A stretch of DNA of 64,000 nucleotides, taken from positions 256,001 to 320,000 of the forward strand of contig CBDBZY010000016.1 of assembly GCA_965213685.1 (NCBI GenBank). Direction: 5' to 3'. Shown in pieces: positions 348-64,000 of the stretch (position 1 is the first letter of the stretch; every line of letters starts with the position of its first letter). The notes beneath the pieces are model-generated. The model saw nothing but the letters and a program-made list of their open reading frames with translations. It ran no database searches and was not told where the DNA came from. Made by a program: the position numbers and the translations under genes. This DNA is from a bacterium (GTDB lineage Bacteria > UBA8248).

Positions 348-2474
348 ATGGCTGCCTGTGGAGACACAGTTGAGAAAGCTGCCTCCTCCCTCACCCCTCG
401 AGACCTCACCCTCCCTGGTAGGTCCCTCCCTCCTGCCATGCCCCTCATCATCTCCACCCAAGACAGCTGGGACCCTCACAGCTGCAAGCTGGAGACTCAC
501 CAGCACAACAGCCAACCACAACACCTACAGATAGTCACAGACACTCTACAGCTGCTGGGAACCATCAACAAGCCTGTGGCTGTCCTGTCCATCTGTGGTC
601 CCTACCGCTCGGGGAAATCCTACTTCATCTCCCGACTGCTGGGCAGGCCTGGGGCCTTTCAGCTGGGCCACAGGATGCAAGCCTGTACACGTGGAATCTG
701 GATGGCCACCACTGTCCTGGAGTGTGAGCAGTTTGTCACAATCTTGCTGGACACGGAAGGCATTGATGCCATTAGAGCCTCTGAGACCATGGATGCAAGC
801 TTGCTGACTGTCACCACACTCCTCAGCTCCTACCTCATCTACAACTCCATGAAGGTGCCCCAGAAGGTGGACCTGGACAAGATGAGGTGCTTCACACAGC
901 TCTCCAGGTCTCTGCTCGTGCAGAAAGGGAAGTCCATGAGGGCAGAGGTCATGAGGAAGTTCTTCCCTCACTTTCTGTGGCTACTGCGAGATGTGACACT
1001 GAAAGTGACAGACAGAGCCGGCCAGACCATCTCAGCCACTGAGTTCCTGCACACTCGTGTGCTGGCATCACAATCTGGCCAGCCTACAGAGCTGGGCAAG
1101 TCTCTTTGCAGCCTCTTCCCCTCACTGGAATGCCACACTCTTCCCATGCCAAGTATCAACCCCAAAGTCATCAAGAACATTGTGGAGCAACAGGACAAGC
1201 TGAAACCAGCATTCAACAAGGCAGTGGATGAGCTGATCCAGCGAATCCTGTAGCAAGTCACGCCCAAGAAAGCCATCGATGGAGTGAGTGTGGTGGATGG
1301 CCCAGCTCTAGCTGCTCTGACCCATGGCTATGTGGATGCCATCAACACACCAGGAGCAATACCAGACCTGGAACAAGGCTGGCAGGCCGTCATCAAGTGG
1401 AAACTAAAGGAACTATCAGACAAGCTAGTGGAGGAGTATAGGAGAGAGATGGAGGAATGTTTAGCAGACAATCTTCCCATGGAGGAGAGGAATCTGATGA
1501 GAATCCACAAACAGACACTGAGCAGGAAAAGGGAGTCACTGCAGCAGGAGATCCGTCGACTCAAGCCATTGAGTTCCACCTCTGGAGACAAAGACCCAAT
1601 CCTGAGTCAACTGGAGCAGGCAATCAGTCAGACAAACGAGGGGGGCGAGGTGATTGGGGGGGTCCTGTTCCAGTTCACCACTCACAACTACTCCAAGTCC
1701 AAGCAGCAGTGTGAAGAGGTGCTGATGGAAGCAGTGAAGAGCAGTGGAATTCACAAAAAGTGTCAAGAAGCCTTCATCAACTCACAGCCACTGGACATAA
1801 TGGCAGAGATACAGGAGATTGACAGGCAATACCACAGGCAAGCTGTTGGACCAGTAGCCAGTGAAGTGCTGGAGAAAGGCCACAGAGAACTGAACCAACT
1901 GGGAGACTCACTCAAGAGAATTCCTGGCTCACCTGGTGAGGTGGAGGTCATTGGAAAGGGATCTGATCGAGTGAAGCTGAGCTGGCAACCTCCAGAGAAG
2001 AACCCTGAGGCTGCTGAGAGCTATGTGGTGTGGAAACAAGAGGAGGGGAAGCAGTGGGAGAGGCTGAGGGAGACAAAGAAGACCAAAATCCTCATCACTG
2101 GACTGAAGTCAGACACAGACTACCAGTTCAGAATCACAGCCACTAATGACCTGATTAAGAGTGTGGCTACAACACAGAACTCATATACAAGGGAGTCAAA
2201 AGCTAAGATGGGAGCTCTTGGTGGTGGTTTTGGAGCACTTGCATTTGCATTGTCCCCAGTTTTAGGTTATCAGGCTATGACTGATGGAGACATGAGTGGA
2301 GGAAAAATAGTAGCCATATCACTCGCCACTGCACCAATCAGCCTCATATGTGCTCCAGTTACTGCTACTGTGGGTGCAGTTGTGTTTGGTAGGGAAACGG
2401 TCAAGCAATGCTGCTACAGTGGAGACCTGTCCCCAGAGAGTGATGATGAGACGTCATGTGACTCCACAGAGTGA
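348..2474 (+). pseudogene. GBP-like GTPase-FN3-hydrophobic-tail gene, leader type A (MAACGDTVEK), with one premature TAG at 1251-1253
   Basis: Motifs GPYRSGKS (G1), CTRGIW (G2), LDTEG (G3) and LLRD (G4) match the guanylate-binding protein family. ORFs 348-1253 and 1284-2474 are in the same frame. Paralogs have CAG at the TAG position. Confidence 0.88.
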
Positions 2475-2899
2475 CATGACAATACTCTATGGCCAGCTAT
2501 AGCTGCTCTTGTGTGTACACGTTCATGTACTCTCATACCTGCCACAATACACACAACATGCACATGTATTTTGATATATTATGGAGTGGATGCAACTCAA
2601 TACAAGCTTTGTTACTATGACATTGTGTTGGCATGGCAACAGCAGACCCTGAGTGAGCATCCATAGTGTGGGTGGAGCCAGAGAGGTCACCAGTGGGTAG
2701 CACACACAGCAGTGATCATCACTGGTTGTCATGACGAGATGGGCCATGTCAATAATTACGTAGTTGCTATAACATGTCACTGTCTGTACCGGCTTCTGGT
2801 GCAATCTGATTGGTCATTTGATTCTTCTCATCACATGATTTGTTTGCATTGTCACGTGACTTGGTTTCTGAGTTCTGGTTGGTGGCTAAATGGTGGCTG

Positions 2900-5800
2900 C
2901 TACTCAACTTCAGTGGCAAAGGTGTGAGGGGGGAGGGGTGAGGAGGGGAGGGGGAGGATGGGGAGGATGGGGAGGGTGATTGTGAGAGTCTTTTTGCTCT
3001 TGTCGAACTTTGCCCTCCCATTGAGTTGATCTACTGGGTAAGAGAGGGCCAGCTGGAATGAGTTAAGGGAGGGAGAGGAGGGGAGGGAGGGAGGGAGGGA
3101 GGGAGGGAGGGAGGGAGAGAGAGGAAGGGAGGGAGAAGGAATGAGAGAGAGGAAGGAGAGAGAGGGAAAGGGAAAGAAAAAAGGGAGAGGGATGGAGGGA
3201 CGGAGGGAGGGAGAGGAAGGGAGGAAGGGAGTGGGAAAGGGAAGGAAGAAGAGGAGAGGGAGGGAGGGGGAAAAGAGAGAGGAAGAGAGGGAGGGAAGGA
3301 GAGGGAGGGAAGGAGAGGGAGGAAGGGAGGGAGGGAGAGGGAGGAAGGGAGAAGGTAAGATGTTGCTAGGATACATCCAGGAGGTATGGTGGTGTTTTGT
3401 TCTGAAGTAGCAGCTGTTTCTCAAACACATCCAATTCCACATCTGCTGCAGAGCTCTGTGTGTGTGTGTGTGTGTGTGTGTGTGTGTGTGTGTGTGTGTG
3501 TGTGTGTGTGTGTGTGTGTGTGTGTGTGTGTGTGTGTGTGTGCATGAAAGAAGAGAGAGAGCTCACCTCCCCCCACACAGCCACCCTCCCCTCCACTCAC
3601 CACTCCAGGCAGCTCCACACACACTACCATCTCCTTCAGTCTCCTCCCTCTTCTGGACACCCTGTCATTAATGAAGTCCTCCATAGCAACCTCCCCTCTG
3701 TAGGTGAGGGTGTAGGATGGTTGGAGAGGGGAGGAGGAGGAGGGGGAGGAGGAGGGGGAGGAGGGAGAGGGGGAGGGGGAGGAGGTGGAGGAGTGCATTT
3801 TTCTTCTCTTTCTGTTCCTTTTGGTGGGTGTCTTCTCTTTGGGAGTGCTGAGGAGAAAATTTGAAAGAGGAGGGAAGGAGAAGGAGGGAGGGAGGCACAG
3901 AGGGAGGGAGGGAGGCAGAGAGAGAGGGAGGGAGGGAGGCAGGAAGAGACGGAGAGTAGGCAGCAGCGTATACATAATGCAGTCAAGTGTACGTGATTGT
4001 GTGTTTGTGGACTGCACACAATGTACATGTGCAACACAACAATACTAGAGTTGCTAGGTTACCACATGAGGTCACTCACTCTGTGCTGTCTGAGCTGAGG
4101 GATAGGGAATGGGAGGGAGGAGGAGGAGGAGGAGGAGGAGGAGGAGGTGGAGGTGGGGGGAGGAGGAAGAGGAGGAGGAGGAAGAGGTGGGGGAGGAGGA
4201 GAAGGAGGCACCATTGGACTGGAGGAGAGAGGGAAGAGGGTCAGTCACTCACTCACACAAAAATTCCTCCTTCTCTATTGGGTCAAACGTAAGGCCTGAT
4301 GCTGCATATTCCTACATGTACCCTTTGGTGCAAGCTTTCTAAATTTGGCAACAGTTGTATAGTAAATTTGGTAACATTACATCATGACAATGCTTTCCCT
4401 TCATAACTCACTTTTGAATGCTTTTTATTTTCCCTGATGATGGTTGGGTGTGGCTTGCCCTTATAAGGCATCTTGAGGAACTTCATTTTGGCGGTGTCGA
4501 CCTTTCCCCCGTCCTTTGTCTCTATGGCTTCAATCACCGTGTCGATCAGCAGCTGCATGAACCTGGGATACTGGGGAGGGGAGGAAGGGGGGAGGGAGGG
4601 AGGGAGGGAGGGAGGGAGGGAGGGAGGGCGGAATGGGGAAATGTGCAACACGTAACAAAACTTGGTCAGTAGTGATGTGTACATGGATCACAGTGTTGAG
4701 CATGCAATGATCATGTGATGATCACATGGTGGTCATGTGACTCCTACCTTCTGCCCTCTCTTGTAGGTGTGTGGGTTGAACACCACGTCAATCACCACAC
4801 ACCTCTTCCCAGCTGCAGGGAGGGAGGGAGGGAGGGAGGGAGAGAGAGAGGGCAAGAGGGAGCAGCGGCTAAGAATAGTCACCAGTGCTCTCAGAAATAC
4901 ACCCCTCCCTCCCTCCATCCCCCTATCCCCACCTCCGTCCCTTCTTCCCCCCTCCCTCCATCCCTCCCTTCCTCCCTTCCAACATCCCTTTCTCTCTCCC
5001 TCCCTCTCTCCCTCCCTCCCTCCCTTCCTCACTTTCTCCCTCTCTCCATCCCTCCTTAACTCCCCCCCCCTCCCCCTTCTCTCTCCTCCCTCCCTCCCTC
5101 CCTCCCTCCCTCTTTCTCTCTCCCTCCCCCCTCCCTCACACTTGTCCAGGTCCTCTCTGTCGGGGGTGATGGAGTACGGGATCTGCCACTGCTGCCCACG
5201 TTTCTTGCTGCTCCCTTTACCAGCTACGGATGTTGCCATGGAAACCACATCACTCTGACAGACATTAATGAATGTCTTGCGGTGACCAGGTTCCACAAAT
5301 ACCTTCATTACAAACCCAGGCTGTGTGTGTGTGTGTGTGCGTGTGTGTGTGTGTGTGTGTGTGTGTGTGTGTGTGTGTGTGTGTGTGTGTGTGTGTGTGT
5401 GTGTGTGTGTGTGTGTGTGTGTGTGAGAGCACAGCTGGCGAGGCCGGTACTGGTGGGGGGCCAGCCCAGCACATGCAGCAGAGCAGAGTGTGTGTGTGTG
5501 TGTGTGTGTGTGTGTGTGTGTGTGTGTGTGTGTGCAGGTGAGTGTCTGCCTCCCTCCCTCACTGTGGGGTTGATGAACTTGACCTCCTGCCCTCTCATCC
5601 TCTCCAGCTCAGTGATCTCATGTTCATAGCGCTGGAGATGAGAGACAAAGAAAATAAGTGCTCCTTCTCTCTCCGTCTCTCTCTCTCTCTCTCTCTCTCT
5701 CTCTCTCTCTCTCTCTCTCTCTCTCTCTCTCTCTCTCTCTCTCTCTCTCTCTCTCTCTCTCTCTCTCTCTCTCTCTCTCTCTCTCTCCTTTCTTTCTCCA

Positions 5801-63707: not shown

Positions 63708-63721
63708 AAGGAGAGGAGGCA

Positions 63722-64000
63722 CCAGTCCTGAGTCAACTGGAGCAAGCAATCAGTCAGACAAACGAGGGGAGTGAGGTAATTGGGGGGATCCTGTTCCAGT
63801 TCACCACTCAGAACTACTCCAAGTCCAAGCAGCAGTGTGAAGAGGCAACCTCCGGAGAAGAACCCTGAGGCTGCTGAGAGCTATGTGGTGTGGAAACAAG
63901 AGGAGGGGAAGCAGTGGGAGAGGGTGAGGGAGACAAAGAAGACCAAAATCCTCATCACTGGACTGAAGTCAGGAACAAAGTACCAGTTCAGAGTCACAGC
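63722..64000 (+). pseudogene. GBP-like 3' fragment running off the window end
   Basis: Paralog of 11720-12335 with the same internal deletion junction. Confidence 0.82.

What the first reader, a model, noticed from the sequence alone, without database searches (positions are those of the whole stretch)
348..64000. Tandem array of intronless GBP-FN3-membrane-hairpin GTPases: candidate undescribed diversifying innate-immunity system
Seen: ten near full-length copies (ATG at 348, 8846, 14866, 22910, 29466, 32960, 40175, 43665, 48005, 60899) plus three tail fragments, all on the + strand. Each encodes a GTPase, a helical region, an FN3 domain, two Gly/Ala-rich hydrophobic segments and an acidic tail. 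Known: GxYRxGKS/TxGIW/DTEG/RD are GBP-clade motifs (atlastins have GAFRKGKS/DTQG). Vertebrate GBPs are cell-autonomous defence GTPases, often anchored by CaaX prenylation, and atlastins use a TM hairpin but have no FN3. Inference: this hybrid architecture, its amplification, birth-and-death pseudogenisation and localised hypervariability indicate a lineage-specific immune effector or sensor family. I do not recall it being characterised.
Basis: partly seen in the sequence, partly recalled or inferred. Interest (0 to 1): 0.9.

Follow-up and report, generated by a model that had tools for sequence, protein, structure and literature searches.

The report
Sponge array of membrane-anchored GBP GTPases
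A sponge-type animal genome carries a large tandem cluster of immune-type GBP GTPase genes that have an unusual built-in membrane anchor, and that anchor varies sharply from copy to copy, which suggests an undescribed host-microbe recognition or defence family.

Summary
The window has 10 near-full + strand copies and 3 tail fragments of one single-ORF gene. It is part of a 28-copy array (about 197 kb) on a eukaryotic contig inside a mostly bacterial assembly. A housekeeping-gene tree and run labels point to a demosponge host.

Each protein has four parts:
- a GBP-type large GTPase with all catalytic motifs;
- a helical stalk;
- one FN3 domain;
- two hydrophobic helices and a conserved acidic tail.

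Sequence, fold and a tree place the GTPase with GBPs rather than atlastin or RNF112. The nearest non-family relatives end in CaaX boxes, so a built-in anchor appears to have replaced prenylation.

The GTPase is under purifying selection (omega 0.32). A 48-codon stretch (FN3 end, first hydrophobic helix, loop) gives omega 2.1, and 20 of 23 intact genes carry distinct versions. Paralogue groups from five other contigs show the same localisation.

In the window, four copies are broken and one has an in-frame deletion.

An immune or microbe-discrimination role is inferred only. No expression or read-depth test was possible. I found no description in print.

Verdict: a real, new variant of a known kind.

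The parts
348..2474 (+). Copy 1: pseudogene with a single in-frame stop at 1251-1253, otherwise full length
8753..10951 (+). Copy 2: intact, 732 aa from the ATG at 8753 (alternative start at 8846). GTPase 9005-9745; helical 9758-10402; FN3 10412-10666; hydrophobic helix 1 at 10685-10759; loop 10760-10777; hydrophobic helix 2 at 10778-10864; juxtamembrane 10865-10900; acidic tail 10901-10948
11708..12335 (+). Tail fragment: residues ~439-484 joined to ~573-732. The frame is open over the FN3 end, hairpin and tail
14866..16990 (+). Copy 3: pseudogene with a frameshift near 15428
22817..25024 (+). Copy 4: intact, 735 aa (alternative start at 22910)
27509..27892 (+). Tail-only fragment: FN3 F/G strands, a divergent hairpin and the acidic tail. 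Open from stop to stop, with no upstream GTPase part
29466..31289 (+). Copy 5: open 607-aa ORF with an in-frame deletion of about residues 470-558 (end of the helical region and start of FN3)
32849..35092 (+). Copy 6: intact, 747 aa (alternative start at 32960). It has a short in-frame duplication in the acidic tail
40082..42292 (+). Copy 7: intact, 736 aa (alternative start at 40175)
43665..45797 (+). Copy 8: pseudogene with a single in-frame stop at 44877-44879
48005..54621 (+). Copy 9: split into 48005-48892 and 53381-54621 by an inserted LTR retrotransposon
48893..53380 (+). Ty3/gypsy-type LTR retrotransposon. It has two 195-nt LTRs that are 100% identical and an open 1316-aa gag-pol ORF at 49107-53057. 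It is the disrupting insertion, not part of the gene family
60806..63007 (+). Copy 10: intact, 733 aa (alternative start at 60899)
63663..64000 (+). Tail fragment running off the window. It continues to C16:320335 (residues ~502-732)

Best explanation
What it is. This is a lineage-specific subfamily of guanylate-binding proteins (dynamin-superfamily GTPases) in a demosponge-type host. The usual C-terminal helical effector region and CaaX lipid anchor of GBPs have been replaced by one FN3 domain, a pair of hydrophobic helices and a conserved acidic tail.

How it is organised. The genes are single-ORF and sit in a tandem array of at least 28 copies. Repeated segmental duplication built the array, and individual copies decay.

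Most likely mechanism (inferred).
- The whole protein faces the cytosol and is permanently anchored in an endomembrane by the C-terminal helices.
- The conserved GTPase with its arginine finger drives nucleotide-dependent self-assembly, as in GBP1 or atlastin.
- The variable module decides which membrane, membrane-embedded ligand or microbial antagonist each paralogue engages. That module is the membrane-facing pole of FN3, one face of the first hydrophobic helix, the short loop and the juxtamembrane segment.
- The array would therefore be a germline repertoire for cell-autonomous defence or microbe discrimination in an animal that constantly takes up bacteria.

Shown: the architecture, GBP affinity, the array, selection contrasts and recurrence in other assemblies.
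Inferred: topology, localisation, self-assembly and the immune role.
For: Architecture and GBP affinity
- Pfam GBP, GBP_C and fn3 all score above their cut-offs.
- The P-loop with arginine, the switch I threonine, DTEG and RD are present and invariant or nearly invariant in 59 members.
- Against PDB sequences, GBP2 scores 119.8 bits (E 1e-33). The best atlastin-1 scores 36.2 bits (E 1.9e-8).
- With the AlphaFold2 model (pLDDT 78.9; FN3 above 90), Foldseek gives GBP5 and GBP1 E 6.6e-22 to 1.9e-20. Atlastin gives 2.2e-13 and RNF112 4.4e-13.
- In the search with the distant member P0127, the first NCBI-named hits are amphioxus GBPs.
- In the GTPase-domain tree, 25 FN3+anchor proteins form one split with SH-aLRT 100. 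They sit inside a 98-supported group with those amphioxus GBPs.
- The nearest non-family relatives end in CaaX boxes.

Selection
- Parsimony counts on region trees of the 23 intact genes give omega 0.32 for the GTPase and 0.32 for the helical region.
- The same counts give omega 2.11 for 48 ungapped codons covering the FN3 end, helix 1 and the loop (Sd 37.8, Nd 243.2, binomial P 3e-6). Pairwise estimates agree.
- 20 of 23 intact genes carry distinct variable cassettes on a conserved GAxxGGxGA framework.
- Variability in helix 1 has helical periodicity. Only 223 of 5000 shuffles reach the observed value.
- In five paralogue groups from other contigs, 3-12% of GTPase columns vary against 31-91% of helix-1 and loop columns.

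Array
- There are 28 copies with irregular 3.5-12.9 kb spacing.
- Repeat blocks of 2.5 kb or more are 88.5-99.7% identical (median 93.3%). The longest is 5.6 kb at 95%.
- Each broken copy carries a single distinct lesion.

Context from papers (passages read)
- Cnidarian GBP homologues are induced by poly(I:C) and cGAMP (PMC13319465).
- GBP GTPases are fused to death-type domains in lineage-specific expansions of marine invertebrates (PMC8195603).
Against: - There is no expression evidence of any kind.
- The 28 upstream regions hold no ISRE. CCAAT-TATA pairs occur upstream of only 5 of 28 copies, and AATAAA occurs downstream of only 12 of 28.
- The membrane hairpin is only a prediction. Mean hydropathy of helix 1 is modest (0.63-1.82), it is Gly-rich, and its pLDDT is about 57-63. 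A single-span or monotopic arrangement is not excluded.
- The selection test is crude. It uses parsimony, applies no transition/transversion or codon-bias correction, and ignores recombination.
- Synonymous divergence is also raised in the variable stretch (pS 0.185 against 0.06). Alignment error, a mutational hot spot, or old lineages preserved against gene conversion may therefore contribute.
- The GBP_C match covers only profile positions 2-78 of 297.
- No atlastin sequence could be put in the tree.
- The immune role rests on homology and evolutionary pattern alone.
Confidence: 0.55

Rival explanations
1. The family is an atlastin-like housekeeping machine. A membrane-anchored large GTPase tethers or fuses organelle membranes, and the copy number has no immune meaning.
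For: The layout of GTPase, helical stalk, two C-terminal hydrophobic helices and a short cytosolic tail parallels atlastin (atlastin layout recalled). Atlastin-1 is a significant sequence and fold match (E 1.9e-8; E 2.2e-13).
Against: GBPs match far better than atlastin, and the named relatives are GBPs. There are 28 copies with pseudogenes. The anchor shows an excess of amino-acid changes. The anchor would be expected to be conserved in a housekeeping fusogen.
Confidence: 0.08
2. The array is a recent neutral amplification. The variable anchor reflects relaxed constraint, needing only hydrophobicity, and there is no adaptive diversification.
For: The array region holds a very recent LTR insertion with identical LTRs. 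Neighbouring gene fragments are co-duplicated with the genes. Synonymous divergence is also raised in the variable stretch. Five of 28 copies are damaged.
Against: Omega is 2.11 with P 3e-6, which exceeds the neutral expectation. Framework residues inside the variable stretch stay fixed while one helical face varies. The GTPase and the acidic tail are under purifying selection (omega 0.32 and about 0.2). Five other paralogue groups show the same localisation.
Confidence: 0.15
3. The function is symbiont management or self/non-self (allorecognition) signalling rather than pathogen defence. The variable module would match particular resident microbes or conspecific variants.
For: The host DNA co-occurs with a GC-rich bacterial genome in the same assembly. 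Runs labelled sponge metagenome hold the stretch. The repertoire-like diversity is 20 of 23 distinct cassettes.
Against: No signal peptide is evident, and a cytosolic GTPase leaves at most a 6-12 residue loop exposed outside the cytosol. That is little surface for cell-cell recognition. Nothing here separates symbiont handling from defence.
Confidence: 0.15
4. The array, or its copy number, is an assembly artefact. Alternatively, the contig is foreign to the organism it is filed under.
For: The contig sits in an assembly whose other contigs are mostly GC 0.63-0.69, so it is mis-binned. Read depth could not be checked.
Against: The contig is 526,799 bases without N. Copies differ by 0.7-4.9% in the backbone and up to 53% in the variable stretch. 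Each copy has a distinct lesion and irregular spacing. No repeat block exceeds 5.6 kb, and that block is 95% identical. Other contigs also hold several paralogues. Mis-binning changes the label, not the reality of the locus.
Confidence: 0.05

Closest known systems
Vertebrate guanylate-binding proteins GBP1, GBP2 and GBP5 (prenylated, interferon-inducible)
   Same: It has a large GTPase domain with the P-loop arginine, switch I threonine, DTEG and RD motifs. These are the best sequence and fold matches. A helical region follows the GTPase. The genes sit in clusters with birth-and-death evolution, as the review PMC9005921 describes for GBPs (passages read).
   Different: There is no CaaX box. 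Only the first quarter of the GBP_C profile matches. The C-terminal part is FN3 plus two hydrophobic helices plus an acidic tail. The coding region is a single ORF. No interferon system is expected in a sponge, and inducibility is untested.
Amphioxus GBPs, including forms fused to Death or DED domains
   Same: They are the nearest named relatives at 29-32% identity. They fall in the same 98-supported group in the GTPase tree. They are also invertebrate GBPs with added domains (Pfam columns; P0137).
   Different: They carry CaaX or soluble ends and N-terminal death-type domains, not a C-terminal FN3 and hydrophobic hairpin.
Atlastins (and Sey1/RHD3)
   Same: The GTPase is of the same superfamily branch, followed by a helical region, two C-terminal hydrophobic helices and a cytosolic tail. 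This is a possible functional analogy for membrane tethering (atlastin layout recalled; matches).
   Different: The similarity is much weaker than to GBPs (36 against 120 bits). Atlastins lack FN3. The RHD3 Pfam hit is below its cut-off (15.9 against 42.4 bits). Atlastins are conserved, low-copy housekeeping genes (recalled).
RNF112 (ZNF179)
   Same: It has a GBP-like GTPase and, as I recall, C-terminal transmembrane segments. The solved truncated GTPase is a fold match at E 4.4e-13.
   Different: No RING domain was found by Pfam. RNF112 has no FN3. The fold match is weaker than to GBPs. RNF112 is not among the 60 PDB sequence hits shown of 66.
Other immune-type GTPases joined to FN3 in invertebrates (Septin/AIG1-type plus fn3 clusters, mainly molluscs)
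   Same: These are the nearest feature-space clusters in the ESM Atlas. They combine a P-loop GTPase with FN3 (scores 0.77-0.80, so leads only).
   Different: They have a different GTPase family (AIG1/septin, not GBP). No homology was shown and no anchor comparison was made.

Membership tests
Guanylate-binding proteins (GBP, Pfam PF02263/PF02841) | N-terminal large GTPase domain matching the GBP profile above its curated cut-off | tested here: met
   PF02263 scores 136.4 bits against a cut-off of 21.1, over residues 85-331. The distant members P0124 and P0127 also match.
Guanylate-binding proteins (GBP, Pfam PF02263/PF02841) | Catalytic motifs: P-loop GxxRxGKS with an internal arginine finger, switch I threonine, DxxG, and RD in place of N/TKxD (the roles of these motifs are recalled) | tested here: met
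   GPYRSGKS is at 110-117, TRGIW at 140-144, DTEG at 161-164 and LLRD at 238-241. These residues are invariant or at least 90% conserved in 59 sequences.
Guanylate-binding proteins (GBP, Pfam PF02263/PF02841) | Closer to GBPs than to atlastin or RNF112 by sequence, fold and tree | tested here: met
   The protein scores 119.8 bits against GBP2 and 36.2 bits against atlastin-1. Foldseek gives E 6.6e-22 for GBP5, 2.2e-13 for atlastin and 4.4e-13 for RNF112. The family groups with named amphioxus GBPs. No atlastin was available for the tree.
Guanylate-binding proteins (GBP, Pfam PF02263/PF02841) | Full C-terminal helical domain (middle domain plus alpha12/13 effector helices) | tested here: inconclusive
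   PF02841 is above its cut-off (42.3 against 24.3 bits) but covers only profile positions 2-78 of 297. The model shows helices over 344-548.
Guanylate-binding proteins (GBP, Pfam PF02263/PF02841) | C-terminal CaaX prenylation signal (a feature of GBP1/2/5 only) | tested here: not met
   The C-terminus ends ...SCDSTK or ...SCDSTE, with no cysteine at position -4. The nearest outside relatives do end in CaaX.
Guanylate-binding proteins (GBP, Pfam PF02263/PF02841) | Induction by infection or immune signalling, and antimicrobial activity | not testable with these tools
Atlastin | Atlastin-type GTPase as the best match, with a conserved low-copy gene | tested here: not met
   Atlastin is a much weaker match than GBPs. 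The array has 28 copies.
Atlastin | Two closely spaced transmembrane helices forming a hairpin, with a cytosolic C-terminal tail | tested here: inconclusive
   The model predicts two helices, at 643-669 and 676-711, with pLDDT about 57-63. Mean hydropathy is 0.63-1.82 for helix 1 and 1.54-1.99 for helix 2. No dedicated topology predictor was available.
Fibronectin type III domain | fn3 profile match above its cut-off and a seven-strand beta sandwich | tested here: met
   PF00041 scores 42.8 bits against a cut-off of 25. Seven strands span 556-638 with pLDDT above 90. Titin and receptor FN3 domains match in PDB.
RNF112 | N-terminal RING finger | tested here: not met
   No RING family appears in the Pfam scans of P0001 and P0002 at E up to 0.01.

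The most novel reading that the evidence does not exclude
The array is a germline-encoded repertoire of intramembrane and luminal recognition modules mounted on a constant GBP engine.
- Each paralogue presents a different helix face and a different short loop inside the membrane of phagosomes or symbiont vacuoles.
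- Binding of a microbial membrane component, or escape from a microbial membrane-embedded antagonist, is coupled to GTP-driven assembly on the cytosolic side.
- The promoter-less but open tail-only fragments scattered through the array act as donor cassettes for gene conversion, which renews the variable module.

This would be a sensing principle not described for any dynamin-superfamily protein. It would also be a non-rearranging diversity system in the earliest-branching animals.
Probability: 0.15. Interest if true: 0.9.

Novelty: new variant of a known kind. Interest (0 to 1): 0.66.

Why it matters
GBPs are central cell-autonomous defence proteins in vertebrates. A 2022 review calls their role in invertebrates "still unclear" (PMC9005921, passages read).

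This locus suggests that a sponge lineage kept the GBP engine, exchanged the lipid anchor for a protein anchor, and then expanded and diversified that anchor.

Positive selection centred on a membrane-embedded helix is unusual. I recall tetherin's transmembrane domain as one precedent; that comes from no call. It points to conflict or recognition taking place inside a membrane.

If the genes are expressed and microbe-responsive, the family would give a concrete handle on how sponges tell food, symbionts and pathogens apart. It would also show how immune GTPase repertoires evolved before interferon.

A practical point also follows. Large animal contigs are present inside an assembly filed as prokaryotic.

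Tried and rejected
Expression and read depth
- The look-up of sequencing runs listed no RNA holder.
I therefore made no test of expression, of 5' introns or of copy number by depth.

Self-association
- Complex prediction on two copies of residues 40-345 gave no verdict (score 0.00, mark 0.42). This is not evidence either way.

Promoter and transcript signals
- The ISRE core occurs once in 28 kb of upstream sequence, and the full ISRE does not occur.
- kappaB-like and GAS-like decamers are more frequent upstream than in the array overall. However, the upstream regions are homologous copies, so the counts are not independent.
- CCAAT-TATA pairs occur upstream of 5 of 28 copies, and AATAAA occurs within 600 nt downstream of 12 of 28. 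These results are too patchy to define transcripts.

Wider searches
- The ESM Atlas held no cluster for the whole protein. Its best feature scores were 0.77-0.80. It gave no usable hit for residues 636-732.
- The genome-contig scan found no relative in other prokaryote-labelled genomes.
- The metagenome-contig scan gave only six loci; five matched at 29-36% identity and one (L016) at 55% in its best segment with E 1e-9. I did not study them.
- A test for cassette shuffling looked for pairs with a near-identical variable stretch but a divergent backbone, or the reverse. It found none at my thresholds.

Literature
- Eight searches found no paper describing a GBP with FN3 or a transmembrane anchor, or any sponge GBP family.
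- I read passages only of PMC9005921, PMC13319465 and PMC8195603.
- Supplements are closed and might list such genes among differentially expressed sponge transcripts.

Rows left out
- The selection analyses use the 23 intact ORFs of the array. The 5 damaged copies were left out.
- Copy g373383 was left out of the periodicity test.
- In the GTPase tree I used 25 of the 83 FN3+anchor proteins and dropped 30 truncated proteins.
- "Same contig" for the other paralogue groups is inferred from equal contig lengths.

Full report
**1. The observation**

The window holds one gene family repeated on the + strand. I used the 732-aa ORF at 8753-10951 (P0001) as a tblastn query. It finds ten near-full copies at 88-100% protein identity and three C-terminal fragments. 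In five copies the frame stays open to another ATG 93-111 nt further upstream.

Five copies are intact. The other five are damaged as follows:
- The copy at 348 has one stop codon, at 1251-1253.
- The copy at 43665 has one stop codon, at 44877-44879.
- The copy at 14866 has a frameshift near 15428.
- The copy at 29466 has an in-frame deletion of about residues 470-558.
- The copy at 48005 is split by an LTR retrotransposon. Its two 195-nt LTRs are 100% identical, and its 1316-aa gag-pol frame is open.

**2. Where the window lies**

The window is G000:C16:256001-320000. G000 totals 7.97 Mb in 71 contigs. Most contigs have GC 0.63-0.69. A minority, including C16 (526,799 bases, GC 0.50, no N), have GC 0.42-0.54. 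C16 carries the retrotransposon and a single-ORF UDP-glucose dehydrogenase.

That enzyme's named relatives are all eukaryotes and almost all animals. In a tree of 29 sequences it falls in a group supported 97/89. The group holds the demosponge Amphimedon and unnamed sequences. It is separate from homoscleromorph sponges, cnidarians and bilaterians (midpoint root).

I conclude that the contig is host DNA of a demosponge-type animal, binned with a bacterial genome. This rests on one gene tree and on run labels.

**3. The full array**

On C16 the family has 28 copies between 178.7 and 375.5 kb, all on the + strand. Start-to-start spacing is 3.5-12.9 kb. Twenty-three are intact ORFs of 695-783 aa. 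All five damaged copies lie inside the window. A degraded copy sits on C64.

Self-comparison gives 123 repeat blocks of 2.5 kb or more. Their identity is 88.5-99.7% (median 93.3%), and the longest block is 5.6 kb at 95%. Upstream regions are shared in mosaic fashion.

The spacers also carry co-duplicated pieces of a PIH1-domain gene on the - strand. An ICAP-1-like PTB ORF on the + strand lies just upstream of several copies. So the unit of duplication was a multi-gene block.

None of this looks like a collapsed or inflated assembly. Read depth could not be checked.

**4. The protein**

Pfam gives three matches above their cut-offs:

| Family | Residues | E-value | Note |
|---|---|---|---|
| GBP | 85-331 | 1.3e-39 | |
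| GBP_C | 339-417 | 7.9e-11 | profile positions 2-78 of 297 only |
| fn3 | 554-627 | 6.4e-11 | |

The motifs are GPYRSGKS, TRGIW, DTEG and LLRD. They are invariant or nearly invariant across 59 aligned members.

An AlphaFold2 model built on that alignment has mean pLDDT 78.9. It shows:
- a GBP-like GTPase domain;
- helices over 344-548;
- a seven-strand FN3 over 556-638, with pLDDT above 90;
- two long helices at 643-669 and 676-711, with pLDDT about 57-63.

No hydrophobic segment lies at the N-terminus. With a cytosolic GTPase, the simplest topology puts everything in the cytosol except a 6-12 residue loop. This is inference.

Helix 1 is Gly/Ala-rich and only moderately hydrophobic (mean hydropathy 0.63-1.82). 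Helix 2 is more hydrophobic (1.54-1.99) and has conserved prolines. A monotopic or single-span arrangement cannot be excluded.

The tail motif GDL-S/T-P-E followed by acidic residues is conserved among paralogues and across distant members. Its role is unknown. A trafficking or phosphorylation signal is a guess.

**5. Family placement**

Three lines of evidence place the GTPase with GBPs:
- Sequence. Against PDB sequences the best matches are GBP2, GBP1 and GBP5 (119.8-108.6 bits). Atlastin-1 reaches 36.2 bits.
- Fold. Foldseek on the model gives GBP5 and GBP1 at E 6.6e-22 to 1.9e-20, atlastin-1 at 2.2e-13 and RNF112 at 4.4e-13.
- Named relatives. A search with the most distant full-length member, P0127, listed all 116 of its hits. 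The first 103 come only from unannotated ENA or Logan records or from the window's own contig. The first named proteins are eight amphioxus GBPs at 29-32% identity.

In a tree of 73 GTPase domains, the 25 FN3+anchor proteins I included form one split with SH-aLRT 100. They lie inside a 98-supported group with those amphioxus GBPs and with unnamed proteins ending in CaaX. The tree has no atlastin and a midpoint root.

Among the stored proteins, I found 161 complete GTPase domains. Of these, 83 belong to proteins with an FN3 downstream and a hydrophobic C-terminus, and 15 to proteins ending in CaaX.

The reading that a protein anchor replaced prenylation in this lineage is an inference from that pattern.

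**6. Selection**

I aligned the 23 intact genes. Variation is low through the GTPase and helical parts. It is concentrated in these places:
- the FN3 A strand and AB turn;
- the EF loop;
- the end of the G strand and the linker;
- helix 1 and the loop;
- the segment just after helix 2.

By the usual FN3 topology (recalled), the AB turn, the EF loop and the C-terminus lie at the same pole, next to the anchor.

Pairwise Nei-Gojobori ratios:

| Region | dN/dS |
|---|---|
| GTPase | 0.31 |
| Helical | 0.37 |
| FN3 | 1.05 |
| Linker + helix 1 + loop | 1.91 |
| Helix 2 | 1.40 |
| Juxtamembrane | 0.99 |
| Acidic tail | 0.23 |

I also counted changes by parsimony on a tree built from each region. The GTPase gives omega 0.32, significantly below 1. 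The 48 ungapped codons of alignment columns 588-643 give Sd 37.8, Nd 243.2 and omega 2.11, with binomial P 3e-6.

Nucleotide divergence is 3.2% on average in the backbone and 25.7% in the variable stretch. Twenty of 23 genes have distinct cassettes. A GAxxGGxGA framework stays fixed inside the variable stretch. Helix 1 variability has a period near 100 degrees per residue, and 223 of 5000 shuffles reach the observed value.

The same localisation appears in five paralogue groups from other contigs. There, 3-12% of GTPase columns vary against 31-91% of helix 1 and loop columns.

Caveats:
- The test ignores recombination and substitution bias.
- Synonymous divergence is also raised in the variable stretch.
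- The stretch has indels.

**7. Mechanism**

Shown:
- a conserved, apparently catalytically competent GBP engine;
- a conserved tail;
- a diversified membrane-proximal module;
- a turnover of gene copies.

Inferred:
- the protein is anchored in an endomembrane;
- it assembles through its GTPase domains as GBP1 and atlastin do (mechanisms recalled);
- the variable face sets partner or membrane specificity.

I judge a defence or microbe-discrimination role most likely, for three reasons. GBPs are defence proteins where they have been tested. Cnidarian homologues respond to viral mimics. And the selection pattern is that of a conflict or recognition interface.

The rivals are a housekeeping tether, neutral amplification with a relaxed anchor, symbiont or allorecognition signalling, and an assembly artefact. 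I weigh them in the rivals section.

**8. Novelty**

Eight full-text searches found no description of this architecture or of sponge GBPs. [quoted passage not shown]

Fusions of GBP GTPases to death-type domains in marine invertebrates are known. So domain shuffling around this GTPase is an established theme.

I therefore class the finding as a new variant of a known kind: a GBP subfamily with a protein membrane anchor, FN3, tandem expansion and an intramembrane hypervariable face.

The searches cover only the held library, and supplements were closed.

Noticed in passing
whole window; G000 contigs C2, C7, C16, C18, C41, C51, C56, C64 and others: The assembly that holds the window is mixed. 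Most contigs have GC 0.63-0.69 and look bacterial. Several long contigs (GC 0.42-0.54, up to 1.6 Mb) are animal DNA. So host sequence is filed inside a prokaryote-labelled genome.
   Followed up: partly
window 48893-53380: A Ty3/gypsy-type LTR retrotransposon has 100% identical 195-nt LTRs, an apparent 5-bp target duplication and an open 1316-aa gag-pol frame. The Gag part has a weak PNMA-like match. The insertion looks very recent.
   Followed up: partly
window 2900-5605 (-), 17427-19717 (-), 35808-37639 (-), 56997-57906 (-): PIH1 N-terminal and PIH1 CS-like domain pieces lie on the opposite strand in the spacers. They are repeated with the array: on C16, tblastn gives 30 hits for the N-terminal piece and 11 for the CS piece. 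I did not determine whether any copy is a whole gene.
   Followed up: partly
window 7219-8105, 21334-22200, 32016-32282, 38565-39517, 46528-46782, 59324-60151 (+): An ICAP-1-like (integrin-binding PTB) ORF lies 0.6-1.2 kb upstream of several GBP-type copies. The one at 59324-60151 is open for 276 aa. It is co-amplified with the array, with 28 tblastn hits on C16.
   Followed up: partly
window 11708-12335, 27509-27892, 63663-64000; also C16:190464-190769, 194015-194332, 213098-213415, 251140-251280: Seven promoter-less fragments in the array all cover the C-terminal variable module. Only two fragments cover the N-terminus. The two I translated keep an open frame. Three copies share one divergent tail type at 61-64% identity. 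Whether they donate sequence by gene conversion is untested.
   Followed up: partly
L001, L002; C16:449005-496268: A second cluster of about seven single-ORF genes of 1360-1498 aa lies on both strands. Of the two scanned, both gave Chlamydia-PMP-repeat matches and one also a right-handed beta-helix match. They have hydrophobic N-termini.
   Followed up: partly
L003; C16:70876-73158: A 761-aa open frame has a P-loop and weak Roc/Ras matches, which suggests another GTPase-type gene near the array. Two 466-aa ORFs at C16:405404 and C16:425419 begin with near-identical sequence, and the one scanned (405404) has a weak vitellogenin-N match.
   Followed up: no
upstream of copies; for example window 29300-29400 and its equivalents: kappaB-like decamers (GGGAAGTCCC or GGGAGGTCCC) lie about 70 nt before the ATG of the MAASG-type copies. 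GGGAA[AG]CCCC lies 720-940 nt upstream of the type-1 copies. These sites are shared by descent, so they are not independent evidence.
   Followed up: partly
C64:1589043-1590945: A degraded family copy lies outside the array on another contig. It has several frame changes.
   Followed up: no
P0137, P0125, P0150 (database proteins): Relatives outside the family show other architectures. These are Death + FN3 + GBP + CaaX (P0137), two GBP units in tandem (P0125) and three GBP units in tandem (P0150), all ending in CaaX. P0137 and P0125 group with amphioxus GBPs in the tree; P0150 falls in a separate clade on the other side of the midpoint root.
   Followed up: partly
window 34990-35092: Copy 6 carries a short in-frame tandem duplication inside the conserved acidic tail.
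   Followed up: no
window 3091-3333, 5322-5425, 5666-5798, 19716-19954, 39010-39180: The spacers contain long dinucleotide microsatellites (TG, TC and CT) and a purine-rich 96-nt repeat.
   Followed up: no
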